From positions 496,001-560,000 of the forward strand of contig OZ237747.1 in the NCBI GenBank assembly GCA_965178125.1: a stretch of DNA of 64,000 nt, in the 5' to 3' direction. Of this stretch, positions 2,731 through 40,400 are shown piece by piece. Every line of letters begins with the position of its first letter. Positions within the stretch are counted from its first letter, which is position 1. The notes under the pieces were generated by a model. The model made no database searches. It saw only the letters and a list, made by a program, of their open reading frames with translations, and had not been told where the DNA came from. The stretch is from Bilabrum cf. latius (taxonomy: Eukaryota). The position numbers and the translations under genes are program-made.

Positions 2731-2813
2731 ACTTGGCTCGAATAAGCTTATTGTGGTGTTCTGGTCTATGCTTGTGTCGTCATCGAACACATGCAAACGG
2801 GTTCGGTTCCGGA

Positions 2814-3140: not shown

Positions 3141-5492
3141 TTAAGTTCGACGCTTCTTTGAAGCTGGCATGGCCCTCTTGTTGCTTGCAGCCTAGATCTT
3201 CGCGATCTTGGCCTTGAGGGCCTGATTCTGAGCTCTCATTGCGTCCAGGTTGACTCTAGCCTCCTCAAGCTGCTCAATAATCTCATCTGTGGACTGATCC
3301 TAGAGTGGGCGGTCGCGCATCTGATTTTTCCGCAGCTAAGCGGCGTCACCCCCGCCCCCCCGGGGCCCGATGGCCCCACGGTTGCCTTGCAGCCCCTTCA
3401 GCCTTGGTCGCCTTTTCTGAGATTGTTGTGCCCGAGCTGCGCTTTCAATCTTTGCTTGAAGCCCCAAACCTGCTAATCTCAGGAATGCAGCCGTGTTGGG
3501 GCGTCTCTTCGCCAGGGCATCATGGGCGCTCACCACGCGCTGGGCGCTCGCCAGTCCCCCGAGGTTGTCAGCCGTGGCAGGCCCAAGCACAGCAGACGAG
3601 GATGATGACTACGGCTCAGATGCGCCTGCTCCACTGGCAGCCGTAGTACTCTTCACGAAAGATCCTGACTCTGTCGGGATACTCTCCAGTATTTTGGCTA
3701 CGTCTGACAGCTCACTACCACTGGCCCCCTCCCGGGCCCTCTGCAGCGTGGCCCTGTGCTGCTTGACTTTGTCCATGTCAACTACAACGGAAGGGTTGAA
3801 CGGGAGAAGTCCGCACTTCTTGAATCCACTAGCAGCATTCGAAGCTCGAAAGCTGTGGCTTGCACAGGTCAAGACCAGCGGTGCGATCCACTCCTCCCCG
3901 ATCGCGTCACACGACGCCTTCGCTAGTGCCGACTTCTTCGCCTCCGGGGCAGACGCCATGAATGCTTCCATGAAATGAAGCTAGCTCAGATAGACACAGA
4001 AGTCTTTCTTAACACCACGAAGCTCTGCTTTGAAGGACGACATGCACGCGACGTCCAGGGGCTGCAGGAAGTGGGTGCTCATTGGAAGGAGGAGCTCGAT
4101 GTCGATGTTGTTGGCAGCGCAGAACTTCCTGAGGCTCCGCTGGTCATGCGTCGAGTGGTTGTCCATCGTGAGCAGTACTCTAGCTGTGGGAGGGAGCCTC
4201 TCTTCCCTTCGCACTCTAGCTGCGTACTCCACGATCTTTGGAAGCAGCAGGGACAAGGACCCGACGTTGCTGTAGCCGGAGGGGGTCGCACAGAACACGA
4301 TGATGTCGAGGAGCTCGATGTCCGTCTTGGCTAGCACCAAGAAGAGTTTCTGGACAGACGAGGGGTCCACAACATTCCCAGATAGCCTTACCTCAGCTAG
4401 AATATCCTCGAGCTCCGCCTTCAGGCCGTCGTCGTCGAGCTTGCCCGCATCGCGCTGGGCTTGCGCACGTTGCAACCGGGCTGCCACATATTCCTGCTCG
4501 CGCTGGATCTCGCGTTTGACCTTTTGAGACTTGCCATCGTAGCGGAAAACGAGAAGGCCAGCAACAATTCCATCCTTCGCTGATACAACAGGAACGAATG
4601 ATACGTTTGTATTGGAAAAATGCGTCGCGCGAAGCGCAGCACGGGGCGATTCGGCCCTGACCACCAGACGGTCCGCCCCGTCAACCCTTGCGCCCTACCC
4701 TGGCTGGGCATGCAGTATGATCACAGTCTCATCTATGTTTAACTACAATCGTTCGTGATAAATGCACGTCCCTGACACGACGACGCCAAGCTCAGTATTG
4801 AGTACCAGGCCTCGTTTTGCTGCTCCTTCGCCAAACCAGTCCAGCAAGCACGTGTGGCTCTCCGCCACGCTACGATTGATTGTCTTCTCTTCACCTTGCA
4901 AATCCTTCAGTTTATGAGCCTTTAGAAATCTGGTTGACCACACACGCGATAGTGGCACCCCATCCTTGTGTGAACCAGCACAAAAGTCGTTGCGAAGGCC
5001 TGTTGCAGTTCGGCGCAGTCCTTCAAGCGTGAACGGCACCTTCTCATCCTCTCGCAATATGACCAGCTTCGCAAGTGCCCGTTCAACATACTAGGGCAAA
5101 TCTGTTCGCCAACACAAATCCTGTAGGGGGCACGTTAATCGTTGCTAGATTCGCTGGAATCGCTTCCGGACAGCGCTAAACGTCTTTTCTGGGTACACCT
5201 CATTTTGAATCTCTCGGTAGATTTCACTGTCATTTTGAACCTTACCGGGATTTCTCTCCCTCCACACCTAAAGCTTTTGCTTGTAAATTATATAATCTGC
5301 TTGCTGCGCTTCATATAGTCGCATCTCAGGCTGCTCAGCTGTGCATTCTTCTACCGATTGCTCCAAGGCCGTGCGCCAAGCGAGCACACGATTCACGTCA
5401 TCCACAGACACCTGAAGGATAGCCCGAGTATCCGAGTCGTCAATTGCGTCGAGTATTGATGATTCTTTAGAACTGGAGGAGGATGCTTGCAT
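3141..5492 (-). CDS. pogo/Fot1-family DDE_1 transposase (783 aa with TAG read as sense)
   Basis: I translated one frame from ATG 5490-5492 to TAA 3141-3143. It has 10 in-frame TAGs and no TAA/TGA. It contains a CENP-B-like HTH (ERALAKLVILRE...LSRVWSTRFLKAH), catalytic motifs NIDET, LLTMDNHSTH and LPMSTHFLQPLDV (35 residues between the last two Asp), and a basic C-terminus PASKKRRT. Confidence 0.92.
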
Positions 5493-5562
5493 AACTCTAG
5501 AATTGAGACCTGTATGAGCTCAAGAAGTGGTCGCATTTGAATCTTGGGACAGTTGCAGTTGG

Positions 5563-5589
5563 TTGGGACAGTTATGGTCGCAAGGGGAT
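5563..5589 (-). repeat. Right terminal inverted repeat of the transposon
   Basis: TTGGGACAGTTATGGTCGCAAGGGGAT; an inner extra copy TTGGGACAGTT sits at 5544-5554. Confidence 0.95.
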
Positions 5590-5649
5590 CCGGATTGTTC
5601 GCTGTGCCCGTCTTCCGCTGGCCATCCTTTGGTCCATTGGACCTGAAAT

Positions 5650-7254
5650 ATGGATTACGGCCTATTGTTGTACAGTGCGGCAAGCGTGTTGTCTACTGTT
5701 TGCCTCGTCAGACGAGTGCTACGACGTCCGACGGTTGGAATCGACGAGCCGACAAGCTGCAAATCTGCGAGGCCCTTGTTCTTACTGGACCCGAAAGTAT
5801 CCCATTTAAACCATGGATCGTTTGGATCCTGTCCTAAAGGCATATTGCGACATAGAATGCAGGTACTGAACCGGATTGAGGCATACCCAGATCGGTTCTT
5901 TCGACAGGAAGCCGTTCATGAGTACAAGCAAGCATGTGACATTGCTGGAACACTAATTAGGGCCGAGCAAGGCAGCTGCGTACTGGTGGAGAACGCAACG
6001 CAGGCCATGGACGCTATCGCGTCTTCTGTCACAGTACCGGCAGGATCGTCCGTGATTGTATTTGAGTCTACCTACGGCGCCGTGAAGCGATGTGCCGCAG
6101 CCCTGTGCGAAAAGTCGAGCGCAACCCTTGTGCAAGTTAGCATTGCATTCGGGAGCAACGGGGCTAACGGGCATACATTCCTGGCCCCTCTGGAAGCGGC
6201 CTTGCAGCGCGAAGCAAGCGAGCGCCGATCGGTCTCGCTTGTGGTGCTGGACCACGTCACGTCCCCCACAGGAATCGTGACACCATTGATCGAGATGGCC
6301 CAGATGTGTCGCAAGTACGGCGTGAAGCGCATCGCAGTGGACGGCGCGCACGCCCCCGGACTGCTTGCCGTGGAAGCCAGGCAGCTGGACGAGGCAGGCA
6401 TCCACTACTACTGGGGCAACCTGCACAAGTGGTGCTTCGTGCCTAGGGGAGTGGCACTGCTGCGGGCCGCCCCGGGGGCGCCGCGCAAAGAGCTGCGGAA
6501 CCCGACGGTCAGCCACTTCGCGAAGGAGCGTCTCCAGTGGCAGTTCTTCATGTGCGGCACCAACGACCAGAGCAAGTTCCTGTCTGTGCCCTTTGCCCTC
6601 AAATTCGTGGAGGAGAAGTTTGGGGGCCTGCAAGCTGTTGCTCGGCGCGGGAAAGCACTTGCTCAGCAGGGTGCCGAGGCGCTGCTGGCTCGGTTCAAGG
6701 AGAGGGAACCTCAGCGAACCTTCATCTAGATCGCACCGGCTCCCATGTGCGTCAGCATGGCCACTGTGCAGACCCCTCTGGACGCTCGGTACTTCCTGCA
6801 TCCGTCCCGCCGCCGCGAGCTGGAAATGGAGATGGGCCGGTCCCTGTCCGGTGCGGGTGCGGGTGCGGGCGAGGGTGCGAGTCGGGGTGGGGCTTGGAGG
6901 GTTGCGCCTGACTCCAAGGTGGACAAGGTGGTTGCGACCGACCCGATGGTTGCTGAGAGAATTGCGCGGCTGATCCAGAAGCGGTTCCGCATCCAGACCG
7001 TGGTGTTCCCTCTCGAGGGGAGGCTGTGGTGCCGGCTGAGTGCGCAGGTGTACAACACCATCGATGAGTACGAGGCGCTCGCAGGTGCGATTGTCGCGCT
7101 GTGTGACGAGTGCGACAGCGGAAGGGATCCCCTGATCGAGGGTCTTGAAGAGTCCGACTGGGGATTCGGGCAGGTCGATCAGGACACAGGGGCGATGTGC
7201 GGTGGGTGCGACGGGCCCGAACGCAGGGAATCGGTCACTGGCTTGCTCCAGTGA
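5650..7254 (+). CDS. Class V PLP-dependent aminotransferase-family enzyme (isopenicillin-N-epimerase / Egt2 / L-cysteine desulfhydrase-like)
   Basis: Motifs LNHGSFG, DHVTSPTG, VDGAHAPG, GNLHKW (PLP lysine) and C-terminal RLSAQVYN. ORFs 5650-6729 and 6745-7254 are in frame across TAG 6727-6729; the gene ends TGA. Confidence 0.9.
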
Positions 7255-7452
7255 TTTTTTGCTTCGATATACCCGCCGGACGTGTTGTAATATAATGCAC
7301 CTTTTCACATATTCAGTGTAGAGCGATCGTGCTTGGCAGATATTGCAGGTAGGAAATGGATTTGCCCTCAGCCGGAACGGAAACGTGATTGCGTGTGCTT
7401 TCTGGTTTAAATGCTTGGATTTGTTTCCGTGGAAACCACAAGGTGAAGAGCT

Positions 7453-10209
7453 ATGAGCTTAAAAGCCGCGGCTGCAGCGAGAGCTTTAGCTAGATCTCGC
7501 TCCTAGCCCGCCGCCCAACCGGAGAGGCAGTCGCGCTGGGGAGCACCGACAGCTTCAACGCAGGCATAGCCTCAGCAACAAGCGCATCCTGCACAAATGC
7601 CATCGATGCAGCAGCCGAACATGTCGCAATCTCATGTAAAGTAGTTTAACCAGCAGCCTGCAATGGGTTCTATGCATCAAGGAATACCTGGTGCACCATA
7701 GACTAACCAGGCTGGATTCCATCCGGGACCTCGGCCGCACTTCGGCCAAGCTCCCATGGTGTTCTACCAGTAGGGACCTCGGCCCAATGCGCCGGCTTTT
7801 CCGTACAACTACCCAAGACCTGCCCCAATGATGGTGCCTGGTGGGCCAAGAGTCCAATATGGATACCCTCCGCGAGGATTCCAGCCTGGTTTCTAGCCAG
7901 GGGCTGCGCGGCCACCTCAACTCCCATTTGGGCAGGCAGGCCATGTAGGATTTGCGGGTGGCAGACCAGGACTACCCCCGGGTGTCCAGCCGCCGCGCGC
8001 AGCAGCGAGCGGGCTGGCAGGAAGGCCGATGCAGTTCGTCCAGGCGAGCCAAGGAACGGGCAGCACCGCAGCTGCCACCACGCCGGCCCCTTCCTCCTCG
8101 TCCGCCTCGTCCGCTGCTCACCAATCGTCGTCATTATCCTCTGCATCTTCAGTTGCACTGACGTCATCTACAGCCACTCAACGACCCGCTAGCTCTCCTA
8201 CCTCGGCCACATACGGCGGGCAGGGGCAAGGGCAGGGGCAGGGGCTGGCATCCTCCACTCAGCACCACGCCAGCGGCATCCCTGCAGCGTTTGGAGGCGC
8301 GACCGCCGCCGCGAGTGGGATGAGTGGCCTGGGCCCGACCAGCGCGATCATGGGGGACCTTACGACAGCAAGACTGTCTATTTGGGTTGGCAAGCTGCCG
8401 CCGACCGACGTGGTGCCTGCAGAGGCGGTCGAGGCCGCCATCCGGCGGGCTGTGAGGCCCGGCAGGTTCGGCCTACTGGGTTGGGAGAGGGCGGGGCAGG
8501 CTATCGCAGGCGCTGGGACAGGTGCCCGCCCCAACGGAGCTGCGCATGGGGAGCGCGCGCCACTGAAGGGATTCGGGTTTGCGACGGTGGAGGGGGCTCT
8601 GGCCGCTGCCAGGTTGTGTTCCCTCGATGGCATCAAGCTGTGGGAGGCGGAGGAATCCGGTGAGGGAGCGGATGGAGGGCATCGGAGCCACGAGGGCGAA
8701 TCCTGGTCCGGCGGGATCGTCGTGAAGCTGGGGAAGGAAGCAGAAGCCGTGATGCAGGCGTGGACGCAGCAGCGGGCGCAGGAAGCCCGCTAGGCTCGGA
8801 GGAGGGCCCGCCGAGAGGCCGCTGCCAAGGCTAGAGAACAAGCGGAGCAGGAATCGAAAGAGGGGAAGGAAGAAGACGGTGAGCAAGAATCACAGGCAGT
8901 GCAAGATACCAAGTCAGAGGGTGCGAATGCTGCTGTAGAGGGGGATCCAGAGACGCAAGCATCCGCCGGAGATGCCAAGGCAGATGAGCGGCATCAGCCT
9001 ACCCCCCAGCAAGCAGGCGAGGCAGTGGGGGGGAGTATCAGAACGGCAGCATCAGCTGACGAGCAAGTGGGAACCGCTTCTGGTAGTGCGTCATCCACGG
9101 CAGCAGCAGGCGAGAGCGAGACTCCAACTGCAGGTGCGACGGCTGCTGCTGCTGGTCAGCAGCAGGAGCCTGAAGCTAGCGCTGGATCAGATGACAGCAG
9201 CGATTAGGAAGACGAAGGAGAAGAGCCTCAATTCTCGCAATTCGTGGACGGCAAGGGGGCTCGAGACGCGGCCATGGAGGCAGCCAAGCTGGCATTCCAG
9301 AGCGTGCTTCAGCGGGAGGGCAGAACCACAGCGGTGCGGCAGAGGCCTGGAGTGAGCCTGGTGTCGCAGTTTCGGGAACAAGCGGAGAAGGAGCAGCAGG
9401 CCATGAATGAATGGAAGCAGCGCATGGCCAAGGCTGCCAAGGCACGGGCAGAGGCAAACGCGAAGCGGGCAGCTAAGGAGCACCAATCGCAGACTCGTTC
9501 GAGCGGTGGCGACGCAGGGCGCAGAAGTGAATCCGCCAGTAGATCCAGCCAGCCTAGAGGCGATGAAAGGAGCTCATAGGGCAGGCACCCTTCGTTTGGT
9601 CGTGATGACGGTCGCGGGGGAGGCCGGTCCAGATTTGAGGCACGCAAGCCAGTGGATGCTCGATTCGTTGACGACGATAGTGATAGCGACGACAACGCTG
9701 GCAGGGACTAGGGCTAGCAGGCTGCAGCTGGTTCAGCGCAAGCTGACTCGGTCGCCGCGGGGGTGAAACGTGACCGACCAGACACGGAGGGTGGGGCGAG
9801 CGGCCAGTCTGCAGGGAAGCGTGCCCGTGTGGATGACTCGGCGCCGTCAACAAGCGAGGTAATTGATTTGCCCCCGCTGGATGCCGAATCCGTGAGGGCA
9901 AGGGTGCATGCAACGCTGGGTCCATTCGTATCGCAGCTGTTCTCTGAGGAAGAGTCGGGCAGCGCCTCCGAGGGAACTGCCCAGGCAGCTTACTCGGAAG
10001 ATGTCCAGGAATTCTTGGGGTTTGTGGCTTCAATCGCAACTGAGGCAGCAAGCAAGTTGCATAGTTTGGCGGCAGACGACACGGACGCCCTTGCCTCGGC
10101 GGAGACTGCTTTTGTGTAGTCTGTAGTGAGCGAGTTCGGAGAGGTCATTGGAGAGGACGAGTCATAGCAGGTGGGAAACCTAGCTTGGATTGCGATCGTT
10201 GGAAAATAA
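7453..10209 (+). CDS. RBM25/Snu71-like splicing factor (Pro/Gln-rich N-terminus, RRM, charged region, PWI-like C-terminus), 918 aa
   Basis: Single frame from ATG 7453 to TAA 10207-10209 with 13 in-frame TAGs. RNP2-like IWVGKLP and RNP1-like LKGFGFATV; helical PWI-like tail (LGPFVSQLF...EFGEVIGEDES). Confidence 0.72.
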
Positions 10210-10415: not shown

Positions 10416-13400
10416 TCAAGCCGATAGCACTTGCCTAGCCATGGCCTTCCGGTCTGGCTCAGACACTGCAATCTTCAGCAGCCGCTGCTCCCTGCCGTCT
10501 ATGACAACTGCCCTCCTGTGGAAACCCGAAGCGGTGCAGCAAGCACAAGCGCATCCATGCTGCAGAAAGCCTTGCAGCCGTGCCACGAGCGCCGCTAACG
10601 CCGACTGGCACTCTTCGACGGGATCGTGGATCTCGCCCATCGCGTATTCATCATCGCCCGCATGCTCAACGTCGTCCATCATGGCGCTGCTACCGCCTGC
10701 TGGTCCCTCGGCACTCGTACTCTGTGCAACTGCCTGCCACACGAAATCGAACAAATGGAACTTTGAATTTGTTTCGGACAGGCCACAGCCTCGACGTGCT
10801 TGCCAGAGCGCAGTAATACCATCGTTCAGGCATTGCACGCTCTGGGCGAGCTGGGTGCGAGCAGGCCCAGGTGCAAGCTGAACAGACTGTAGCGCCGTTG
10901 CTGCAGCAACTATCACGTTGCTCTGGATAGAGAATGGATTCAGTCTGGAGGCGCAATCTTGTAGGACACGGGATCGAGTTGCTTGCTGCTTGCAGTTCTG
11001 CATACCGTCTAGGTATGGCCCAGTGATGAGAATCCACTGTCGTAGCTGTAGCCAAGCTGCCACTCCCGCGTGCGATGGGACATGCGGCTCGCTTCCACTT
11101 CCTTTACAAGCAGGAGATGATGTGTCTACCTTGACGCCATCTGCGAGGGAGCCCATGTCCGGCATCGTTGGGATGTCAAAACCAGGAAGTGCACCCCGGG
11201 TGGAGAATAGCACCCTCCCGAAATCTTCGTCGGGGAAAAGAAGGCTGTGCGAGAGAGCATACCCAGCCACGCACCCAAGAGAGACAGTCTGGGCTAGCAC
11301 TGCTGGAAATCGCGGCTTGGGATATATGTGCGGCCGGGCGCCACATCGCAGCAGCTCTTGCACAGAAGTACGGATAGAGGCTCGTTGAATCTGGAATGCA
11401 CTCGCAGGCGAAGTATCCTTTCCTCGCGACCCATCTCCCGAAGCTGCACCGGCCCCTGTCGAAGCGCTAGCTTCAGTCTCTTCGGCAATGGCAGCTAGAG
11501 CGTCGAGGTCCTCGCTTGCCAGAGACTCCGGCATCGAATGCCCCGCCGCGCTGCTCTAGGTGGCCGGTACATCAGCGGCGTCCTGTGATCGCAAAACACC
11601 CATTGTTCCTGCGGCCACAGTGGCATCAGCTGCACGATGCGCGGTTCCATGGCCAAGGCTTTCCTCGACCAGCTTTGACAAGAGTGATGCCACGCTCAGG
11701 TGACTCTCGAGGTGCAGCATGGCAGCGACACGTCCCCGGCTCTGCGACAGGCTCGAGCCGGTCTCAGTGGATCTAGAAGGAGTTGTGCTTCGTTCCTTCG
11801 TCGACTGTTGACGAGAAATCACCTAGATCAGTGAGTTCAGCAGATTGGCAGACGTCCCAGACTGCTGGTTCGGATCGGTGGTGCTTGCTGACCCGGCGGT
11901 CCGGCCACTCAGGCGCTCTGAAAGCTTTTCCGCTGCCGAGACTAGTGCCAACGACGTGTGCATGGAAAGGAGTTCGATCGACTGCACAAGAACAGAATAC
12001 GCAAACACGCGCTGCCTTGCATCTATGAGAACCAGCGCAGTCGCTGCCTCAGCGCTCTCCGTCCCCTACAGACGCACTGCTGGCCAGAACGGGGCTTCCT
12101 GGATCTCGCGAAGACGCTTTAGCAGCTGGGCGGCCTCCTCACCCAGCCCCAGACCGGGCAGGGCAGATTCGAACAGCTCATCAACGTGCAATACGGGCGG
12201 TTGCTCTTGCTTGAATGCCTCCAAGACAGCCCTTGCTTGCGCGGCTGCCAGCGAGCTGGACGAGGTACCCGAAGCACGAGATGCCGACGTTGCACTGCTC
12301 TTGGTAGGCGTAGCTGTTGCCTGGTTTGTATCCGCTGCGACCAACCTGGCCAGCCGCCGTTCCTTTGCTTGCTAGACAGCAAGCTGCCGTTGAACCGCCT
12401 CAGACCTCTGTTTCGAGGCGGAGGGACCCCCAAGAAGACCGACCATGGTTCTTCGTTTCGGCTTCTGACGATTTTTGCCGTCTTGAGGTCCTCTACGGCC
12501 CCCACCAAGCAGGGCGCGCATTGGACGCGCAGCAGTGCTGGCACTCACGCTGTCAACAGTGCTTCGGAGGCTTGATGGGAGCCTGTACTCACGCGATTTC
12601 TGCTTGATGCGTCTCGTGATACTTGCTCGCTGGCTCCCGAGGATCCCCACACCGGACTTCATCGACGCGGACCGCTGCGGCCTTCCAGGAGCAGCCAATG
12701 TCAAGCTTGGTTTAATCCGTCCTGCCGCATGTTCCGCGTGCACTTGCTCTCTGACTTTTTGCTGCTTGGCGCGGAGCAGACGCACCGCTTCGAACCTTGC
12801 ATACTTGCTCGCTTGCTGCAGAGCGTGCAGGGCAAAGTCTTCCGGAATCGATGCGCTGCCTTGCTGGCTAGAATCCCGTAGTGAGGATCCTGTAGTGCCA
12901 CCATTAGTCTTCAAAGAAATGGCATTGGCAGGACGGAATCGCAGCGGAGAATTGGCGCCGAGGATTCGTCTACTAATGTCTACGAGAAGCCATTGATCCG
13001 GCTGTGCACCACTCAGGTGTGCTGATGCCCATTCTAACAGTTGCTACCGCGTGCAAGCAATCTTCGAGACGAATTGCAGCTCCCCAAGGGCAAGTGCTGC
13101 AATACCGCGGGCACTCTCTGCCAGATCGACCCCAGCTGACCCCGAGGCAGCACCTGGCGGAGAACTAGAAGCTGCTTTTACCAAGTCCTGCAGGTGGCAT
13201 ACAATCTAGCACAGTACCAGTACAGATGCAATCCTACTCCTGCACTTCCCAGCACAAACTTGCTTCAAGACCCGCCCTACGTACTGTAGTTCAGCGAACA
13301 AGTCTGCGTCGGACAGCTGTCCCTTGTCTAGCTTTGAACGTAGGTGTGACTAAACCGATAAAAGACGCAGCACAAGCTATCCCAGGGAGCGCCCACAGCC

Positions 13401-18981: not shown

Positions 18982-19044
18982 ATGCGCGGCGCACGGAGGT
19001 TCCGCTGGTCCACCAGAGGACAGAAGCAAGCACTTCTACTCAAT

Positions 19045-27100: not shown

Positions 27101-27456
27101 CGGGCACTTTGGAGTCGGCGCCTGCAGAGACAGCAGGGTCGCCATCTGGCGCGCAGTCTGCCGATAGCATGGCTAGACTGCAAGAGCGGCTGCTGCACCC
27201 TATGGTTCCTGCCGGCAGAATCATGCTGATGCGCAAGCTTGCCACTTCCACCGTGGCATGCTGCGACAGTGCGAGGGGCACGCGCGACTACGCACCGTAT
27301 TGGATTACACCAGCATACCTGGGTCGGATTCACGTCAGTGCTTTGATGCTGCGAGACCACCTGCCCGACGTTGTGGACAAGGTTCTCATAATGATGGCGA
27401 GGGGTATTACTGGTGAGGAGGTTCGAGCGAACGGGTGGTGGGCGCATTCGGAATGA
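24198..27456 (+). CDS. Diacylglycerol lipase-like class 3 lipase (N-terminal TM segments)
   Basis: DAGL-type start MPRVVLFGRRTAAVEDD, VSVRGTLS, catalytic GHSLG, AYSPPGG, LGDDVVPRLS and MLRDHLPD. Intron 26460-26556; TAGs at 24459, 25890 and 27028; ends TGA. Confidence 0.88.
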
Positions 27457-30500: not shown

Positions 30501-31780
30501 GCTCCACGGTAGCCCCGATGATGACGATCAAGAGCGCGTAAACGATGATGGCGAAGGTGAGGGCGTTGAGCGTCCCCGATCCGATGCTCTTGCCAGGGTC
30601 CTCCAGGTCGCCGGACATGTTGGCACCGGCTGCGAGCACATGGGGGTGTACGGGGGCAAGGGAGCGCACGGAGAGATGAGAGAGAAAAAATCTGCAATGA
30701 AGCAAGCAATTGACAGCCATCACACCGACTAGTGTCTGTTGGACTGATGAGATCAGTACTCTACTTCAACAGGACTCACCCATCACCCCAGTCAGGGCAG
30801 GGAACACAACCACGAGGGTCGTGAATAGATTCAGCTGCTTCCCAGTGGATCCAACCGTGAAATCTACCCACAAATTCCCCGCTAGCGTCTCCCCACTCAG
30901 CCCCGTGTACCCCGGGACATACTTTGTGCTGTGGTTGGCGTCGGGGTCCCCCTCCTCTGAACCTGGGTACACGGCCCCGCGGACGAGGAAGGACAGAGCG
31001 GCCACCACGATGGATCCCATGAGGACGATGAAGATGCCCAGGTTCAGCTTGGAGAACACGCTCGCGCCCACCAGGGACACTCCGAGCAGCACCAGGAGTG
31101 CGACAGAGGCGTACAGCTTGGTCATCCACACCGACCCGCCGACGAGACTGGCCAGCTCCTCGGCGAAAGCCACCAGGTAGAATGTAATTCCCACGCTATT
31201 TGCAGCAAAAAACACGATGCCGATGGCCCCTCCGAATTCGGGCCCTAGCGAGCGGGAAATCATAAAGTAAGCGCCGCCGCCTCGCATGGTCCCGTTCGTG
31301 CTTATAGCGCTGATGGAAAGAACTGTGAGCAGCACCGCGGTGCCTGCCAGAAGAAATATTAGCAATGCGCCGAGCACACCGGCTGCGCACGAGTGAGCAG
31401 CGCGGAAAAAATAAGACAAAGGCTGTAGCGCCGCACCAGCCGACGCGCTCCACCAGTGGAAGTGAGTCGCGCAAGATTGCCGCGGACCTTGTCAGCTATG
31501 AACAGTCTTACCTTGTCCAACTGACCAAGGGAGGCGTAAGAACAAAATGGCCCCAAATATGGAGAGCAGACACGGCAAAAACACACCGTAAAACGTGGTG
31601 AGTTTATTCTTCTCCAGCTGCAATACGAGGCAGACGAAAGGGAAACGCCAGCGTCAAAGAACGCAGGCAATACGCTACCCAAGCACAATACTTGAAGCAC
31701 TCTCACAGCTGCTGGAGGGGAGTCTCCATCGGCTACTTTTGATATCGTAGACTCTGTCGCACTACCAGACTCTGCGAAGA
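27592..31780 (-). CDS. SLC12A9: Cation-chloride cotransporter, SLC12A9/Vhc1-like (5' start uncertain, upstream of 31617)
   Basis: Motifs KLTTFYGVFLPC, ILFLRLPW, GGGAYFMISRSLGPEFGGAIG, FPALTGVMAGANMSGDL, NFRPRFKYFSW and WGDVSQAIIFHQVRKFLL. Introns 31383-31511 and 30630-30779 restore conserved motifs exactly; ends TGA. Confidence 0.9.
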
Positions 31781-32034
31781 ATTGCTGTAAGCGCAGTCAA
31801 AAGATTCGATATTTAAAGTTTTGAACTACACGTACACGTCAGGTAGGAATTCAAATCATACCCTGGATTAAAGGACGCTGCATCCTGGAGAACGGATGCA
31901 CGAAAGATGAAAACGATTTCAATGATGAGGTGCAACTGCAGTTGCGGAACCAACCGGATCGTATCGGCGGCGCCGAAGTTTCACTTTTTGCAGCCGTTCG
32001 AAAGCAGATCTTGGCGGGGCAATTTGACGTTGTA

Positions 32035-34825
32035 ATGAAGGGAAGAGGAGGAGGCAAAGCCGCTGCTAGCAAGAAACGAGATGCAACAGCCGAAGCAGTC
32101 GAACGGATAAGGCGGCAAAGGGAAGCCAGGCGAAGATCAGCCGAGAACTTCCGCCGGGAGCGCGAGATCGAAAGTGCCCGCAATGAAAAGTCAGGAAACC
32201 CAGGGGATGTGGACTTCCAACGGATGATTCGAAGGTACAGGGCCGAGCAGGCAGGCTCATAGCAATCTGTGAGACTTTCTTGTTGAGCGTGTTGAGCCTC
32301 TGTACCAATTCCGGTCGGAAAAGAGTTATTTGCCCTTGGCGATGTTTTCAGTGTACCGCAGCACTCTGCACCGGGAAAAGACAAAGTTACTATTGTTGTG
32401 AGGAAGAGACCTCAGAACTCTAGGGAGAAATCGCGCAAAGATTTTGACGCAGTGACTTGCGTGAACCCGAGAGCGGTGGTGCACGCATGCAAGCTCAAAG
32501 TTGACGGGATCTCGAAGTATCTGGAGAATCAGGCGTTTGCATTCGACCATGTAAGACGATAAACGGGCAGCACACCTGCATCCGCTCCTTGTGACGATTC
32601 GTTGCGGACTAGTCCATCGATGCTTCCCGAGTGCCAACGTTCGCAGGCTTTTTCTGAGGCTGACGATACGCCAATGATATACGCGCACACAGTGCAGCCC
32701 CTGGTGGGATACATGTTCTAGCGTGGACGCGGGACGTGCTTTGCTTACGGCCAGACTGGCTCGGGCAAGACGTACACGATGACCGGAGTGTAGGCCATGG
32801 CGGCTCGAGACATTTACGCAGAGCTGAGCAAGCCGGAGCACCGAGCGAGGAAACTTGGGGTGTACCTATCCTTTTTTGAAATATACGGGGGGAGATGCCA
32901 GGATCTCCTGAACGGCCGCGCCAAGGTCACCATCCGGGAGGACGGTGCCGGCCGCGTGAACCGAGTCGGGCTGGGCGCGGTGCGATGCGACGGCGTAGAG
33001 GCACTCCTGGCTGCGATCGAGCGGGGCAACGAGGCCAGAACCACGCATTCCACCGCCGTAAACAGCGTCTCTTCCCGCAGCCACGCCATCTGCGACATCG
33101 TGGTCAAGGACACTGCGGGCCGAATGTGGGGCAAGCTGTCCCTCATCGACCTCGCTGGGTCCGAGAGGGCCGCAGACACGAGGTCCCACAACCGCCAGCG
33201 GAGGCTCGAGAGTGCCGAGATCAACAAGTCACTCCTTGCCCTCAAGGAGTGCATCCGGTGAGCTTGATCTCTCCCTCACGCAGACGATGAACAGCTGATT
33301 CCATATCATCATCTGCGCAACTGGTGCCCTTCAGCTTCGATGCTACCACACTGCCCATGCCTCACAATGCCTGCCATTCGCTCCCCTTTCCGCCGTGCCA
33401 CACCGCAGTGCACTGGACTCTGGATCCGGCCATGTGCCATTCCGTGCCTCCAAGCTGACACTCGTTCTGAAGGACACGTTCACGTCAAAGGCGGCCAAGG
33501 TGGCCATGGTGGCCACTGTGTCTCCGGGGGCGTCGTCCGCCGACCACACCATCAACACGCTGCGGTACGCAGACAGGGTAAAGGAAAAGAAAGCCAAGGC
33601 CGGCAGCGGTGGGAGCCGGGCCGGAGCGGTTCCGGTTTACGGCAAGGGGCTTGGAGCCCCCGAGGTGGAGAGATCGTACCCATCAAGAATAGAGACCTCT
33701 CCTCTGACCGTGGAGGACGATGACGCAGCGGCTGCTGCAGCACCCGAACCGAGGTCACCGCGGAGGGCGGCGGCCCGCGCGGAGGGCGGCGTGGCGGGAA
33801 GTGTGGGGGGCAGACGACGGGCTGTGGGGCGCATCCCTGATCGAGCGGGCCGGCCCGGGGATGGTCGGCGTGCGGAACCAGCAGCGCGCGGGGCCGCCAG
33901 TGCGGCGGCGCGACAGCCCGCGAGGCGACGACCGGCTGACGCATCGGATCGAGCTGTGCGCGGTGGCTTGGGCGAGGGCGAAGGTAAGACGAGCGAGGGG
34001 GACGAGCCCAGGCTCATGCGGGGGCCGCCGGGTGGTTCCGGGTCCGGGTCGGGCACCAGCTCTGGCCGCGGCAAGGCGGGCGGGTCCGGGTCAGGTTCCG
34101 GGTCCGGGTCTCGTCGTCGTGCCGAGATACCTGAAGATTTCGAAGAGGACAGCGAGGAGGAGCTTCGGTCGGAGTTCAAGAGGGACCTGATGCCGGGCCG
34201 CGGCGCAGGCTCGGGCTCGGGCTCAGGCTCGGGTGGTGCTGCAAGGGCAGGCAGGGGGGGTCCTAGCAGCGGGAGCGGGGCGGGGGAGCCTCCCCGCCGG
34301 GACCCTTTCGAGGAAGCGGACCGAGCCGGCGGTGGAAGGCCGGGTGCAGGTGCATCGCATGGTGGTGCCGGCAGCAGTCCCCAGAAAGACGACCTCCGCA
34401 TGCTTCACGCCACGCTGAGTCGGGACGAGAAAGGCACCAGCGGCCGCTGGCTGGAGTTTCACGAGATCATGGATCGCATCGTGGAGGAGGAGGAGCAGCT
34501 CCTGAACGCGCACATGAAGCAGATTCAGGACAATGCGGACGACCTCACGGAGGAGGGTGCGCTGCTGAGCAAGGTGCAAGGCAACGAGGTCGTGGACTAC
34601 GACATCGACGGGTATGCCGCGCAGCTTCAGGACATCCTCAAGAGGAAAATGGAGCGCACCCAGCGGCTTCTCGCGCAGGTAGGGAGCTTCAGGAAGCACC
34701 TCGCTCTGGAGGACGAGCTGAGCAAGAAGTACGGCAACGATGGCCTGGCGATGCCCTGGGATGGCCAGCAGCAGCAGCAGCAGCAGCAGCTTGGTGGGGG
34801 CGGGGGCGCAGGGGGCGGGCGGTGA
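32035..34825 (+). CDS. Kinesin-13 (KIF2/MCAK-like microtubule depolymerase)
   Basis: Motifs VRKRP, KLKVDG (KVD finger), CFAYGQTGSGKTYTM, SSRSHA, LIDLAGSER, EINKSLLALKECIRAL and HVPFRASKLT. Introns 32269-32361, 32551-32646 and 33258-33408; TAGs at 32260, 32719 and 32791; ends TGA. Confidence 0.95.
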
Positions 34826-34968
34826 CATCTGAGTATCGTCTAGTCTGGAGGGTCGTGTGGGACCCCAGGCCCACCCGCGATCCGGATTTTGCGCGGCGCC
34901 ATCTTTGTTCGGAACCAGGAACCAGAGGAAGTCGGCCTCAAACGCATTTGTATTGCAGAACCACAAAG

Positions 34969-37347
34969 ATGGGCCTATCAGATAGCACTAGAATATCATT
35001 TACAACCATTCAATGGAATGCCAGCCAAAGAAGAGTTCAACAACGCAGGGCAAAGGACCTTTCGTTTGGTGTTGCATTAGCCTGTCTGGCGATCCTCCTT
35101 GGTTTTTCTGCTTGTAGATCTAGCAGCTTCGGCGTGCTGGTCTGGAGAATTTTTGGACCTTCTAAAATATCTATTAGCGAGCTGGCGAGCCTAGCAGGCG
35201 ACATGAAGCCTCTCGCTGGGTGGATCGTCCCGAAGCTGTCAACAGGTATCCTAGCGTATCCAAACGTGCTGAATCGCGAATTGAGTAAATCACCAGTCGG
35301 TTCCATCCCTTCATACTTCATGAGGTCTGTTACGATTGAGGAGGGGCTGACGTACAGAATCTTCAAAGGCAACCGAACCGCGGAGCACAGAAATGTGCTA
35401 CTAATGACTCGTCAAGGCGACCAAGTGGACCTCAAGCACTGGATGGGTCCAGAAGATTGCCTAAAGATGTCTCTGTGGAGCCTTCAAATCATTATACAAC
35501 CAAAGGACTCGCAAACAGAGAGCTATATTCGGCAGATGTGCAGGAATAAGCTCGCGCTGGACACGTTCTCTGTCGCTGTTGCGCGACTGCACAGCGCAGG
35601 AATAATAGCTGGGTTCATTGAACCAGTGCAACATGGGCGAGATAAGCCATTGGTAGACTCTCTAGATCACTGGCAGTTCAAGGAAATGCAACTGCGCCGA
35701 TGGGTGCCTGGAGATGAATAGCTGCGAGCAGCTGTCGAACAAGCCCAGAAAAAAGCCAGTAGCATTCGAAGAGATGCAATCATCAATTGCACCAGTGCAA
35801 CAACGGAGTCTATTTCATTCGGGGAGGTCTTTGTGCTTGGAATAGCGCTCATTAGCCTTCTGCTGGCAGCAGACTCTGCGTGGCACTGGTGGATCCTGGC
35901 TATCTCCGAGCTGCCGCAGCAGGCGAACATGCGTGACACTCGCAGCGTCCACCGATTCCTTGGTTCGGGAAACAGCAGGACCACGGAGAACAAACGTCCA
36001 TTTCCCGAGCTCGCGAGTCTTGTGGCGTCGAGAGCTTAGAGTGGCGTGCCAGTCACGGACAAGGCGGCGTTGTCGGCAGGCTGCCTCGTGCCGGCAGGGC
36101 CAAGCGCTCCTTGGTTCGTGCTGGACCGTGAGGACGCTGTAAACCCACAGCTATTGGTTGCATCCGGCCTCGCATTGCAGCCACTTGGATGGATCAGATC
36201 GAGGCAGCGCCGGAAAGTTGCCGAGCAGCTCCATGCATGGAGTGGCCAGGTGCTGTATTCCATGGACCCGCGGATGATCGAAGACGTATCTCTGGCTGCC
36301 ATCCCGTTCGCCACAGCCAAACACATGCAACTCGATAGCGTGCTGCCAATGATAGAGCTGCACCGGCAGGACAAGGAGGCCACCGAAATCGGGGAAATGT
36401 GGCCCGCTATACGCATCGTTGTTGGGTCTCTCTCTCCATCTGCACTTGCCGTGCAAGCAGGTGGCAGGGGCAAGCAAGCCGGGCTGTTTAAGGGGCCGCC
36501 AAAGCTGCAAAGGCAGGTGTCCATCGTGAGAGGAAGAATGGGCGAGCCGTTCCACCTCCACAACGTAGCATCAGTGCCGCGAGTCCCCCCTGTGGGCAAG
36601 CATTCTGACCCAGCCGAGATCGAGAGGCTGCAACAAGCAAGGCTCGTCGTAGATCAAGCCAGACACTCTGAAGAAGACATTGCGCAGCGAACCATCAGCA
36701 TACCGCTTCCGTTCTCTGGTCACGGGACTCCGAAGCACTGCCTGGACCAACTGCGAGCCGCGATCGAGCTGGCCAGCCCAGGGTTCAAGGAGCGGTCGTC
36801 TGCAATGCAGCGCTTGCATAAGGAAAACAGTAAGGTCATTTTGAGCTTTAACGATGACGTCAGCGAATGCGCCCAGCGGATTCATTAGAGGCAATAGGAC
36901 GACGCGGAGTACATCCGACTATTGAAGGTCACTCGGCGAGTCGAGCGAGACGTGTTCCAGCGAGTCCAGGTGCTAGGGCCGGAGCGGGTGCTCGGAAAGA
37001 GCCTTGGGGCCGATCCGGCAGTCAGGCAGGCCATTCTTGCCGGTGCCATTGAGCTCAATACCGACGATAGGTTGCATCAAAAGTACCTCGGTTCGGACTG
37101 CCCGCTGTGCCTGGAGCCCATGGAGGAGGGGCAGCAGATAGCCCCGTGGCCGTGCGATCATGAGCATGGCTTGCACGTGGAATGCATGAAGGAGTACCTA
37201 GACTCGCAGCATCACTGCCCCATGTGCCGTCACGAGGTCAGGGCGAACGCAAAGGCTGAGCTGCGTGGACTAGTCGAGCGTGGGGTGCGCGCTATCATGC
37301 TAATGCAGGGCATCCGCCAGTACTGGCAGCACCTAGGTTTGGGATGA
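34969..37347 (+). CDS. Membrane protein with a C-terminal RING-H2 finger (probable E3 ubiquitin ligase), ~790 aa
   Basis: Four track ORFs lie in one frame, joined by TAG (35719, 36037, 36886, 36895). Two hydrophobic segments; RING CPLC...PCDHEHGLHVEC...CPMCR; ends TGA. Confidence 0.8.
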
Positions 37348-37449
37348 AGGACACGGTCCAGCCTTCTCGGCTGGAATCGCTGGACGAATTGCACCACAAA
37401 TGCAACCTTTCCAGACAACGATGCACTGGAGAGCAACATCAAGAACGCA

Positions 37450-40400
37450 TTAATCCCGCCCGGCTGCACCCTCGCTTAGCTCCACCAGGCTGCGCCGCGA
37501 CTCAGCGTGTCCACTACCCCAGCCAACGCCAGCTTGCATGTCATGGGACGTATCCGATATATCGGCACCCCCTGCTCGAGCACTCGCTCCTGTGCTCGGG
37601 TCAGGGAGCCCCCACGCACTCTACCGTCCAGTGCCTCGCGATTCTGGTCTCGGTGGCATAGTCCCACCAAGTTTCGGCAGGGCCGACGTGGACGCAGCGT
37701 CGTTACTTCCAATCGCCATCCCTCCTAGTGGATGCCCCGCTCTTCTGCCCCGACGGATGTCTACCACTGATCTAGCCGCCTGCAAAGGCATCCTTGCCGC
37801 ACTTTTGGACTTACCTAGTGTCTTCTTCTTCGAAAAAACTCTAGTCCTGCCGTTCGCTCCTGGCACGCCCAATCCGTTGCTACGCTGCGCACTTGTGTGC
37901 GTCTACTGGCTAGCGCCCTTGAGGGCATCTCGCCTTGCATTCATTTCCAGGATGCGCTCCTTGGAAGCCTTTCTGGCTGCGGCGATTGCCCTCGCTGTCG
38001 TGTCCTGCGCCAGCGATGACTGGAAGCCCCTGACGGAGCGATCCGTATCTGGTGTCATCGGGTTGCGCTTGCCCTCCTCGTTTGAAGGCTCCAGTCGAGG
38101 TGCAAGGCTAGCTGGTGGCGGGGGACTCGAACCTAGACCACTCCGACCCAGCCGCGGGCGAATGGGAGATCCTTGGCCAGCTCCAGGCGAAGACAAACCA
38201 CCGGAGCGCCCGCCAAGCCGTGTGCCGGACCGGGACTACGAGATCCTGCCAGCCTCACCAGCCATAGATGTTGCCTGCAAGGAAGCCACGCTAGAGCCAT
38301 GCACGGCGGTGCCAAGGGTACCGCCACCAGAAGCATACCCAGCTCCGTCATGCATGGAAGCAGTAGCTCCTTCGTGCAGACCTGCCTTGCTGCCCCCGAA
38401 GAGCTGCACGGACATGTCTTTGGAGAGCTCCTTCAGCTGCCGCTACGTGGATCGCTGGCCTGACTTGGCAATGGCGGCATCTGCTTGGGCCTTGTGCAGA
38501 TCCTTCTTGAGTATTGCGTTCTCTTTCCGTAGCGTATTGACCTCGGACACGAGGACGTAATTCTCACCCTGCAGCCGGACGCTCTTCACCCTGCTCTTGC
38601 CAGCATCGCGCATCCGCTCTTGCCTGGCCTACTCCAATGCTCCCTAGAGGGCACGCTGCTAGTGCCTAACTTCCGTCACGGCACCAGGCGGCAAATCCTG
38701 CGCCTCTGCGCCGGCAAGCACGTTCAGCCGCGCATCCTCTTGATCATGCGTGTCCGCCCCATCTAGTGCGTCAGACACCGTCGGCTGGAGCGCTGCAAGC
38801 ACGGCTCGGACGTCACCCCTGCCCTATTGCGCCCTCTGACCGGCATCCTTTGCCTTGCTTCTGCTCATCGCAGCCGCTCTGGAGGCCCCGGGGGCGTAGC
38901 CGCGCAGCGGTGCAGATGGAAGCAGCTTGCCGGGAGACGACGCCGCAGCATCGATCACGGCCGCGCTATCAGACAGCTTCGGTCTTACAGCGGTCCGAGC
39001 TGCAGAGATCGGCCTTCCGACGTTGTGCTTGCGGATGAGTTTTTCGGCCTCAATCTTGGCCCTAGTAACGGCAGTGCGCAGTCCATACTTGTCGCGCTCG
39101 GTGAGCGAGTCAAATGCCCCTTCCTTGCCTGCTTTGGAGGACGAATCCTTCGACTGCACGGACGACCGACGCGCGATGCTGCGCGTGCCTAGCATGGTGC
39201 TGCTCAGCACGGTGCTCCCGCGACGCGCGGCCTGCTTTGCAGCTATCCCTGTGGTCACGCTTCGCGGCAGCTCACCCAGTGCGAGCTGCTTGTACACGGA
39301 GATGAGGGCTTCCTTCCATACCTGGCTGGTGGTAGACTAAGAGCTCTCGCCCGTGCCGGTTTGAGGAGATTTGTCTCCTTTCTTCGGCTTGTGGCCCTTG
39401 GCACTTCCTGAAAGACCCGCAGTCGATGCCTGTTTAGACTCTGCGGCGGCATCGGCTTCGTTCGAGAAGGCCTCACGAACTGCCATTTCCAGGGCGCCTG
39501 CCGCCTGCTTGAGCCGATTCTCAGCGCGCACAAGTTTCTGCTTGACGCCTTCCATCTCTGTCCTGATCGCTCGCGTTCTCCGCTCGGCCGCCTCCGCCCT
39601 CCGCTCGGATGCTAACTCTCGTTCCTTGGCAGCATTCACCTCGTCCGAGACTGCCGCAAGCTGCCGCACGGCCTCCTCCCTCTCTGCCAAGGCCGGCCTG
39701 GATTCTTCCTTCACGGCTTCCAGTTCATTTTTGAGGAGATCACGACTGCGCTCAAGCGCCCCTGCACGCCTGCGCTCACCCATCAGGTCCTTCAGGTGCA
39801 GGGCAGCCTGAGCCAGCTGCTCGCCCTGCTCAGATCTGAAGTCACGGAGCCTTTGGTGCAGCACCTGCTCACGGGCCTCCGCTTCTGCTCGCTTCTTTTG
39901 CTCCGCGGCCAAGTCTTCCTGACTTGACTGCACGGCCTGCTGCAGCTGCTCCACCTCAGACCGCAGCGCAGTCATCTTCACTCGGCTTTCAATTTGCGTG
40001 CGTCGCTGACTGGCTTCTGCCACGGCAGCTCTCTGCCGCAGTGTGATGACTTCGGTATCAGCAGTCTTCTCCTCCTCCTCCCTTCTGCCCTCGTACTCCT
40101 CTTGCATGAGCTCGATGTACCGATTAGATTCTTCTGTCTTGCGTCGCTCTTCGGCGAGAGCCTCGGCGAACTTGCGGGAGACGAGAGCTTCTGCCTTGTG
40201 CTGCTCCTCGCCGTCCTTGGCGCGCTGCAGCTCGGCGTCAGTGACCGCGTCCTCGTACTTCTCTCTCCAGCGCTGCGCCTCCTCCCTCGCCTCTGTAAGT
40301 CGTCTGGAAAACTCCATCTCGGCGCGCTCCCGCCACTGCCGGTGCCTATTCTCGCTCTCCGACTGCTCCTTGCGACGCTTGCTTTCAATCTCACCGGCTT

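What the first reader, a model, noticed from the sequence alone, without database searches (positions are those of the whole stretch)
3141..37452. TAA is uncoupled from TAG: TAA and TGA remain stops
Seen: three genes end at TAA (3141, 10207, 37450) and the other traced ends are TGA. None ends at TAG, and no in-frame TAA was found in coding exons. Established: in most eukaryotic reassignments (many ciliates, diplomonads, some ulvophytes) UAA and UAG change together, and UAG-only reassignment is known from few lineages (e.g. the fornicate Iotanema and some ciliates). Inference: this GC-rich flagellate does not look like a ciliate and may be an independent origin. It resembles a heterotrophic stramenopile, but I cannot establish taxonomy from this window.
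Basis: partly seen in the sequence, partly recalled or inferred. Interest (0 to 1): 0.8.

Follow-up and report, generated by a model that had tools for sequence, protein, structure and literature searches.

The report
UAG-only glutamine code in a stramenopile
This GC-rich protist, apparently a relative of the flagellate Cafeteria, reads the stop codon TAG as glutamine while still ending its genes at TAA and TGA, a rare split of the two codons that seems not to have been reported from this branch of life.

Summary
Read with only TAA and TGA as stops, the window resolves into a compact set of long genes. Across 15 coding pieces (17,870 codons) there are 106 in-frame TAG. The only in-frame TAA (3) and TGA (10) are terminal.

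TAG means glutamine:
- One TAG in the kinesin-13 motor aligns to Q in 113 of 115 homologues.
- A roughly 95-97% identical relative has Q at 4 of 4 of our TAG sites.
- A second relative, from a metagenome, has TAG at a conserved Q.

Spliced RNA contigs from two studies keep the kinesin TAGs unedited.

TGA is a real stop. The SLC12 protein ends flush with 12 full-length homologues, and the orthologues in the metagenome relative also end at TGA. TAA as a stop rests on statistics and gene geometry, not homology.

The closest named relative in two protein searches and one tree is Cafeteria roenbergensis. The code equals NCBI table 15, as in Iotanema and some ciliates, so this is a new lineage and not a new kind of code.

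I could not test the suppressor tRNA, eRF1, a genome-wide stop census, or occasional termination at TAG. Seven literature searches found no nuclear code change reported in stramenopiles.

The parts
3141..5519 (-). ORF of 792 aa with a DDE_1 transposase-like domain. It has 10 in-frame TAG and ends at TAA 3141-3143, followed by AT-rich sequence and an in-frame TGA 4 codons later.
5647..7254 (+). Class-V aminotransferase-like gene with 1 in-frame TAG. Ends at TGA 7252-7254.
7447..10209 (+). ORF of 920 aa, rich in Q and P, with 13 in-frame TAG (for example GFQPGF-TAG-PG). Ends at TAA 10207-10209, with a second in-frame TAA 3 codons later.
10416..18572 (-). ORF of 2718 aa with 24 in-frame TAG. Ends at TGA 10416-10418.
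18946..22212 (+). APC-family amino-acid permease with 5 in-frame TAG, 2 of them inside the Pfam domain. At codons 47 and 544 the closest eukaryotic homologues, including Cafeteria, have Q. Ends at TGA 22210-22212.
26464..27456 (+). Last exon of the gene that starts near 24087. It is 58% identical to the orthologue in L001 and holds 1 in-frame TAG. It ends at TGA 27454-27456, at almost the same C-terminal position as the L001 orthologue, which also ends at TGA.
27592..31861 (-). SLC12A9-like transporter gene. RNA contigs verify four introns: 30630-30779, 31383-31511, 31618-31706 and 31772-31861. The large exon has no TAG. TGA 27592-27594 ends the protein flush with homologue C-termini.
30766..30768 (-). 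In-frame TGA that joins two ORFs. It lies inside the spliced intron 30630-30779, so it is not a sense TGA.
32014..34825 (+). Kinesin-13 gene. RNA contigs verify three introns: 32269-32361, 32551-32646 and 33257/8-33407/8. Two TAG codons sit in the motor domain at 32719-32721 and 32791-32793. The second aligns to Q in 113 of 115 homologues. Ends at TGA 34823-34825.
34969..37347 (+). RING-finger protein gene with 4 in-frame TAG. Ends at TGA 37345-37347. It is convergent with the next gene, with a 102-nt gap.
37450..47139 (-). ORF of 3229 aa with 19 in-frame TAG. Ends at TAA 37450-37452. Reading through this TAA would run 292 codons antisense across the RING gene's coding sequence.
49601..53485 (-). 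Glycosyltransferase group 1 gene with 4 in-frame TAG. Ends at TGA 49601-49603.
54473..60385 (+). TmcB-TPR/PAS protein of 1970 aa with 13 in-frame TAG. The TAGs at codons 189, 225, 458 and 622 (55037, 55145, 55844, 56336) are Q in a close relative. Ends TGA TAG TAG GGC CGA TGA TAA.
60587..63541 (+). Popeye-domain / cNMP-binding protein with 2 in-frame TAG. Ends at TGA 63539-63541.
1..2931 (-). Rhodopsin-domain protein with 6 in-frame TAG. Its 3' end lies outside the window.

Best explanation
The window is nuclear DNA of a GC-rich, intron-poor eukaryote, most likely a Cafeteria-related (bicosoecid-like) stramenopile. Its code has UAG reassigned from stop to glutamine, while UAA and UGA still terminate translation. 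This is the same table as NCBI code 15.

**Shown:**
- TAG sits inside conserved, expressed coding sequence and corresponds to Gln.
- TAA and TGA occur in frame only at gene ends.
- At least two further sampled lineages share the trait: a roughly 95-97% identical relative and a metagenome organism about 73% identical in SLC12.

**Inferred, not shown:**
- UAG is read by a tRNA-Gln with anticodon CUA, one mutation away from the CUG isoacceptor. Such a tRNA pairs with UAG but not UAA, which is why the two codons can separate.
- eRF1 has lost or weakened UAG recognition while keeping UAA and UGA.
- In a G+C-rich genome where CAG is the main Gln codon, C-to-T changes then seed TAG at weakly constrained Gln sites.
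For: **TAG is sense.**
- There are 106 in-frame TAG in 17,870 codons, which is 11.6% of Gln codons.
- ORF lengths collapse under the standard code.
- 74 of 1052 TAG triplets are flanked by the best coding frame on both sides, against 3 of 429 TAA and 7 of 1623 TGA.
- Pfam domains continue across TAGs.

**TAG means Gln.**
- The kinesin-13 TAG at 32791 aligns to Q in 113 of 115 homologues.
- Fragments of a close relative (P0369, P0374) have Q at 4 of 4 of our TAG sites.
- All 3 of that relative's standard-code gene calls end exactly where we have TAG (1) or CAG (2).
- The two permease TAGs at codons 47 and 544 align to Q in the three closest eukaryotic homologues, including Cafeteria.
- In L001, one TAG sits where 6 of the 7 sequences without TAG at that column have Q.

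**Expression without editing.** Spliced contigs from runs X5 and X6, which belong to two studies, cover 32647-33256 with 0 differing letters.

**TGA is a stop.**
- The SLC12 protein ends flush with 12 full-length homologues.
- The L001 orthologues of SLC12 and of the neighbouring gene also end at TGA at the same place.
- In-frame TGAs between ORFs lie in introns that are verified or predicted.

**TAA is a stop.**
- There are 0 internal TAA. About 43 would be expected if TAA were used relative to TAG as CAA is to CAG.
- Read-through of TAA 37450 would run antisense through the RING coding sequence.
- AT-rich sequence and a second stop follow within 3-4 codons after TAA 3141 and TAA 10207.

**Lineage.**
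Against: - No tRNA gene lies in the window or in L001/L002, and no eRF1 is available. The mechanism is inference from published cases (PMC5304391, passages read).
- TAA as a stop has no homology-validated example here. Only 3 genes end at TAA.
- Occasional termination at TAG cannot be excluded from DNA and RNA contigs.
- Between the window and L001, only 1 of 7 TAG sites faces Q. The others face E, E, I, S, L and R. The baseline is 29 of 47 for ordinary Gln codons.
- Distant TmcB homologues do not discriminate. Q makes up 12.6% of residues at TAG columns and 15.3% at canonical Gln columns.
- Animal kinesin-13 structures show E and Y at the two TAG positions.
- Taxonomy rests on three proteins.
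Confidence: 0.88

Rival explanations
1. The code is context-dependent. UAG is read as Gln inside genes but also terminates some genes near the mRNA 3' end, as stop codons do in Condylostoma, or as UAA does in Blastocrithidia.
For: - Nothing in the window demands this.
- TAG does occur close to ends. It sits 14 and 17 codons before two of the TAA stops, and two TAGs directly follow TGA 60383.
- DNA and RNA contigs cannot show where ribosomes stop.
Against: - All 15 traced ends have TAA or TGA.
- The two homology-validated C-termini (SLC12 and the gene ending at 27454) run straight into TGA with no TAG in between.
- The SLC12 mRNA contig extends about 50 nt past the stop, so the 3' UTR is not extremely short.
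Confidence: 0.07
2. The usual coupled change (UAA and UAG both Gln, as in table 6) has occurred, TGA is the only stop, and TAA is simply rare in a GC-rich genome.
For: - TAA is the rarest stop triplet, with 430 on both strands against 1055 TAG.
- Two of the three TAA ends are followed by TGA or TAA within 3-4 codons, so read-through there would barely change the protein.
Against: - There are 0 internal TAA against 106 TAG in 17,870 codons. About 43 would be expected from the CAA:CAG ratio.
- Only 3 of 429 TAA have coding signal on both sides, and all three are explained.
- Read-through at 37450 would add 292 codons antisense to a RING-domain coding sequence.
Confidence: 0.03
3. UAG encodes an amino acid other than Gln, such as Glu, Tyr, Leu or pyrrolysine.
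For: - Animal kinesin-13 structures have E and Y at the two TAG columns.
- Two TAGs in L001 face GAG (Glu) in the window.
Against: - Q is found in 113 of 115 closer kinesin-13 homologues.
- Q is found at 4 of 4 sites in the 95-97% identical relative.
- Q is found in the closest permease homologues.
- A repeat reads GFQPGF-TAG-PG.
Confidence: 0.02
4. The TAGs are artefacts: pseudogenes, assembly errors, or codons edited to CAG in the mRNA.
For: None found.
Against: - Only one of the three stop codons interrupts frames.
- Spliced RNA contigs from two studies carry the genomic TAG unchanged.
- Independent assemblies of two relatives show the same pattern.
Confidence: 0.01

Closest known systems
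Iotanema spirale (Fornicata): UAG = Gln, UAA and UGA stops (PMC5304391)
   Same: The codon table is the same. In-frame UAG sits at Gln positions, genes end at UAA or UGA, and the predicted mechanism is a tRNA-Gln(CUA).
   Different: It belongs to an unrelated supergroup (Metamonada). It is known from transcripts only. In that paper's passages UAA is called the dominant stop, whereas here TGA dominates (12 of 15 ends). This window is genomic and GC-rich.
Ciliates with UAG-only reassignment: Protocruzia tuzeti and phyllopharyngeans (PMC11687900); NCBI table 15
   Same: UAG is reassigned (to Gln in several of them) while UAA is kept as a stop.
   Different: They are ciliates. This is a 64-kb, 59% GC contig with GT..AG introns and best matches in stramenopiles.
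Rhizarian exLh (UAG = Leu) and Scotinosphaera (UAG = Ser)
   Same: UAG is uncoupled from UAA outside the ciliates. In exLh the bona fide stops are UAA and UGA only.
   Different: The amino acid differs. Here it is Gln.
Coupled UAR = Gln codes (table 6: many ciliates, Hexamita, Dasycladales/Cladophorales, Streblomastix, Amoeboaphelidium)
   Same: A stop is reassigned to Gln, presumably through a mutated tRNA-Gln.
   Different: In those codes TAA is also sense. Here TAA was tested and is not used internally.
Cafeteria roenbergensis (closest named relative)
   Same: It has the best named protein matches (45-59% identity) and also a GC-rich genome (about 70% by the abstract of 10.1101/751586).
   Different: Only a non-standard mitochondrial code is mentioned in the passages I read. 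Its SLC12 and permease orthologues are full-length under standard-code gene calls.

Membership tests
UAG = Gln nuclear code with UAA and UGA as stops (NCBI table 15 type) | In-frame UAG inside conserved, expressed coding sequence | tested here: met
   106 in-frame TAG in 17,870 codons. TAGs lie inside the kinesin, permease and PAS/TPR domains. Spliced RNA contigs retain them.
UAG = Gln nuclear code with UAA and UGA as stops (NCBI table 15 type) | UAG corresponds to glutamine | tested here: met
   Q in 113 of 115 kinesin homologues. Q at 4 of 4 sites in a close relative. Q in the closest permease homologues. This is by alignment only, with no peptide data.
UAG = Gln nuclear code with UAA and UGA as stops (NCBI table 15 type) | UAA is not a sense codon | tested here: met
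   0 internal TAA where about 43 would be expected. 3 of 429 flanked by coding signal, all explained. Geometry at 37450. This covers the window only, and no TAA end is validated by homology.
UAG = Gln nuclear code with UAA and UGA as stops (NCBI table 15 type) | UGA is not a sense codon | tested here: met
   0 internal TGA. The SLC12 end is flush with 12 homologues. Orthologues in L001 also end at TGA. In-frame TGAs lie in introns.
UAG = Gln nuclear code with UAA and UGA as stops (NCBI table 15 type) | UAG is never used as a terminator | tested here: inconclusive
   None of the 15 traced ends needs TAG. The sample is small and there are no translation data.
UAG = Gln nuclear code with UAA and UGA as stops (NCBI table 15 type) | A tRNA-Gln(CUA) gene is present | not testable with these tools
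   No tRNA in the window or in L001/L002, and no genome is held.
UAG = Gln nuclear code with UAA and UGA as stops (NCBI table 15 type) | eRF1 N-domain is altered so that UAG is not recognised | not testable with these tools
   eRF1 is not in the window and no genome is held.
Coupled UAR = Gln code (NCBI table 6) | UAA is used as a sense (Gln) codon alongside UAG | tested here: not met
   0 internal TAA against 106 TAG. See also the best-frame test.
Codes with no dedicated stop (Condylostoma / Blastocrithidia type) | UGA is read as Trp, and stop codons have a dual, position-dependent meaning | tested here: not met
   No internal TGA. Dual use of TAG remains untested.
Stramenopiles (Bigyra, bicosoecid-related) | Phylogenetic placement by 18S or many genes | tested here: inconclusive
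   Only three single-protein lines of evidence. The best named hit is Cafeteria in two searches. 29 of the 31 kinesin hits that carry an organism name are stramenopiles. The SLC12 tree gives a clade with 96% SH-aLRT support together with Cafeteria. No rRNA lies in the window.

The most novel reading that the evidence does not exclude
This is the first nuclear stop-codon reassignment in Stramenopiles. A clade of Cafeteria-related protists, with at least three sampled lineages that also occur in environmental metagenomes, independently turned UAG into a glutamine codon while keeping UAA and UGA as stops. This happened in a GC-rich genome where CAG-to-TAG drift is easy. Genomic and RNA data already exist for it, so it would be a tractable non-ciliate system for asking how eRF1 and a CUA-anticodon tRNA separate UAG from UAA.
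Probability: 0.5. Interest if true: 0.75.

Novelty: new member of a known kind. Interest (0 to 1): 0.65.

Why it matters
UAA and UAG almost always change meaning together. The passages I read in PMC11687900 and PMC5304391 name only a handful of nuclear lineages in which they are split.

- **A new data point.** An independent case in a different supergroup, in a GC-rich genome, bears on why the coupling exists: tRNA wobble or eRF1 constraints.
- **A comparative series.** It comes with close relatives (about 97% and about 73% identical) and a standard-code neighbour (Cafeteria).
- **A practical consequence.** Standard-code gene callers are already cutting this organism's proteins into fragments in public protein collections. 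P0249, P0369 and P0374 all end where the window has TAG or CAG. Annotations and metagenome bins of this clade therefore need table 15.

Tried and rejected
**Resources that gave nothing.**
- No whole genome is held, so a genome-wide stop census and searches for tRNA and eRF1 were impossible.
- ARAGORN found no tRNA in the window or in L001/L002.
- Rfam at gathering threshold found nothing in the window.
- The scan's earlier notes held nothing.

**Weak or uninformative tests.**
- A fixed-threshold codon-usage classifier was too weak. Only 37 of 133 true in-frame windows passed. I replaced it with the best-of-six-frames test.
- Animal kinesin-13 structures suggested E and Y at the two TAG columns. 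I rejected this once 115 closer homologues were aligned. The first column is variable (Q in 16 of 115). The second is Q in 113 of 115.
- Distant TmcB homologues (150 listed) do not discriminate the amino acid.
- The comparison between the window and L001 gives only 1 of 7 TAG sites facing Q. I read these as weakly constrained sites, not as evidence for another residue.

**Gene-end and domain corrections.**
- The TAG-TGA 'end' at 26706-26711 is rejected as a gene end.
- The SNARE-like tail ending at TGA 22469 has only a sub-threshold Pfam hit (E 0.0099).
- The minus-strand TGAs at 53601-54640 flagged lie in a region with only short ORFs in several frames.

**Sequencing runs.** No RNA holder was listed as such. 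Even so, laid contigs of X5 and X6 are spliced at 7 and 5 GT..AG junctions. The 8.5-kb X5 contig across 35763-44288 has no intron, so it cannot prove that it is RNA.

**Literature.**
- Seven searches for a stramenopile or bicosoecid nuclear code change found none.
- A search for the accession prefix of the EukProt transcriptome that ranks high in all three protein searches found nothing.
- Supplementary tables were not consulted.

Full report
**What the window is.** It is 64 kb at 56-62% G+C. It holds no tRNA and no Rfam family at gathering threshold.

Under the standard code the longest stop-to-stop frame is 1058 codons, and frames of at least 500 codons cover 13.7 kb. With TAG read through they cover 57.7 kb, with frames of 3230, 2719, 1971, 1295, 1089 and 1071 codons. 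Reading TAA through gives 15.6 kb and reading TGA through gives 32.2 kb.

The long frames carry eukaryotic Pfam domains:
- bacteriorhodopsin-like
- DDE_1
- class-V aminotransferase
- AA_permease_2
- SLC12
- kinesin motor
- RING
- glycosyltransferase 1
- TmcB-TPR plus PAS
- Popeye/cNMP

Together the coding pieces I used cover about 84% of the window. That is 17,870 codons, or 53.6 kb of 64 kb (arithmetic).

**RNA evidence and introns.** One sequencing-run search listed 17 runs, of which 14 hold the stretch or a part of it. I laid four of them on 27000-46999.

Contigs of X5 and X6, which come from two studies, skip seven and five segments respectively with GT..AG ends:
- Four are in the SLC12 gene: 30630-30779, 31383-31511, 31618-31706, 31772-31861.
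- Three are in kinesin-13: 32269-32361, 32551-32646, 33257/8-33407/8.

These contigs therefore derive from spliced RNA, even though the runs are not on record as RNA. The seven introns share GT(G/A)AG or GTATG at the 5' end and GCAG at the 3' end.

The same spliced contigs cover exon 32647-33256 with no differing letter. The two TAG codons in the kinesin motor (32719, 32791) are thus present unedited in mature mRNA.

**TAG is a sense codon.** In 15 coding pieces there are 106 in-frame TAG, or 5.9 per 1000 codons and 11.6% of CAG+CAA+TAG.

A test that does not use stops to define genes confirms this. I scored all six frames with a codon-usage log-odds trained on stop-free stretches. I then asked, for every stop triplet on both strands, whether its own frame is the best one over 100 codons on both sides.
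- TAG: 74 of 1052.
- TAA: 3 of 429.
- TGA: 7 of 1623.
- Fisher p is 2e-8 and 3e-23.

**TAG means glutamine.**
- *Kinesin-13.* I aligned the 115 hits ranked 6-120 of the 120 listed. The top five multi-stretch hits, at 44-49% identity, were left out. The TAG at 32791 faces Q in 113, E in 1 and M in 1. The TAG at 32719 is a variable column (N 20, H 18, Q 16 and others).
- *Permease.* Four TAGs fall in the aligned part.
  - Two of them (ORF codons 47 and 544) face Q in the three closest eukaryotic homologues, including Cafeteria roenbergensis. Across all 120 hits, E/D and R/E/Q dominate those two columns.
  - The other two fall in an insertion or a misaligned tail.
- *A close relative.* It is represented by three standard-code gene calls on one 54,058-nt contig: P0249, P0369 and P0374, at 94-97% identity to the window.
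  - It has Q at 4 of 4 of our TAG sites (TmcB codons 189, 225, 458, 622).
  - Its three gene calls end exactly before positions where we have TAG (codon 285) or CAG (codon 892, and 27679-27681). That is what one expects if the relative has TAG there.
- *A more distant relative.* L001 and L002 come from a metagenome. L001 is 727 of 995 identical to the window in SLC12, and L002 is 311 of 361.
  - The SLC12 orthologue in L001 has 5 in-frame TAG.
  - One of them lies in a conserved membrane segment. At that column 6 of the 7 sequences without TAG have Q, including the window and Cafeteria.

Against this, the other L001 TAGs face I, S, E, E and L in the window, and one window TAG faces R in L001. 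That is 1 of 7 facing Q, against 29 of 47 for ordinary Gln codons. These sites are in poorly conserved segments. Distant TmcB homologues are uninformative. Animal kinesin-13 structures show E and Y at the two columns, which the closer homologues overrule.

**TGA and TAA remain stops.** All 13 in-frame TAA/TGA in the coding pieces are terminal. With the three further ends I traced, the tally is 12 TGA and 3 TAA.

*TGA*
- The SLC12 protein ends ...FVTEDL followed by TGA at 27592. This is flush with the C-termini of 12 of 13 aligned homologues. The thirteenth is the truncated gene call P0249.
- The L001 orthologue has the same last residues and also ends at TGA.
- The convergent neighbour gene ends at TGA 27454. 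Its L001 orthologue ends at TGA within one residue of the same position.
- ORF pairs joined by a single in-frame TGA or TAA are explained by introns whose length is a multiple of three. Three are RNA-verified (30766, 32284/32293, 32560). One is predicted from the GTAAG...CGCAG consensus (48574).

*TAA*
- There are no internal occurrences. About 43 would be expected if TAA were used relative to TAG as CAA (232) is to CAG (576).
- After TAA 3141 and TAA 10207 the sequence turns AT-rich, and a second stop follows within 3-4 codons.
- Read-through of TAA 37450 would run 292 codons antisense through the RING-finger coding sequence of the convergent neighbour.
- No TAA end could be checked against homologue C-termini, so this part is the less secure one.

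**Who it is.**
- The best named hits for the permease (45%) and for SLC12 (59% over the conserved 39%) are Cafeteria roenbergensis.
- Of the 31 kinesin-13 hits that carry an organism name, 29 are stramenopiles: oomycetes, Nannochloropsis, brown algae, Hondaea and Triparma. The other two are dinoflagellate-labelled records.
- A quick IQ-TREE of SLC12 (45 rows, SH-aLRT support only, the careful search unfinished) gave two results.
  - The window, P0249 and L001 form a clade with 100% support.
  - That clade sits inside a 96% clade whose only named member is Cafeteria.
- This supports a bicosoecid-related stramenopile but is not a phylogenomic placement.
- The Cafeteria genome preprint (abstract and passages) reports about 70% GC and mentions only a non-standard mitochondrial code.

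**Comparison with what is known.** The table equals NCBI code 15 (recalled). From passages of PMC11687900 and PMC5304391, the nuclear UAG-only reassignments are:
- the rhizarian exLh (Leu)
- Iotanema spirale (Gln)
- Scotinosphaera (Ser)
- Protocruzia tuzeti
- several phyllopharyngean ciliates

Those papers argue that a CUA anticodon reads UAG but not UAA, and that eRF1 must change. I adopt this as the inferred mechanism. Seven full-text searches found no report of a nuclear code change in a stramenopile or bicosoecid. Subscription journals and supplements were not covered.

**Verdict.** The code itself is already known, and what is new is that a stramenopile lineage uses it. Still open are the tRNA, eRF1, a genome-wide census, possible rare termination at UAG, and a proper placement of the organism.

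Noticed in passing
window 3141-5519 (-): A pogo/Tigger-like DDE_1 transposase ORF carries 10 in-frame TAG and no other stop. This transposon-derived gene is therefore written in the host's variant code.
   Followed up: partly
window 30630-33408: Five of the seven RNA-verified introns have lengths divisible by three (150, 129, 90, 93, 96). At least three of them carry an in-frame TGA or TAA. All seven end in GCAG, and six of them in CGCAG.
   Followed up: partly
window 24087-27456 (+): The ORF that seems to end TAG-TGA at 26706-26711 continues after an unmapped intron in another frame to TGA 27454. The junction was not located, and Pfam gave no family for the first 874 aa.
   Followed up: partly
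window 1-2931 (-): A bacteriorhodopsin-like domain (residues 251-423 of the frame) is embedded in a protein of more than 977 aa. Its long C-terminal extension has no Pfam match and runs off the window.
   Followed up: no
window 27456-27592 and 37347-37450: Convergent gene pairs are separated by only 135 and 102 nt. One X5 contig runs unbroken from 35763 to 44288 across the second pair.
   Followed up: no
window 60383-60403: The TmcB-like gene ends TGA TAG TAG GGC CGA TGA TAA. Nine of 13 terminators have another in-frame TAA or TGA within 16 codons.
   Followed up: no
window 27000-46999 (runs X1, X5, X6, X7): Contigs that match the window without a differing letter occur in runs filed under four different coded organism labels, from four studies. 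The organism may be co-cultured with others, or filed under several names.
   Followed up: no
proteins P0249, P0369, P0374: Public standard-code gene calls for the close relative are fragments that stop at presumed TAG codons. One starts inside an intron (P0249). Proteins of this clade are therefore mis-annotated in public collections.
   Followed up: partly
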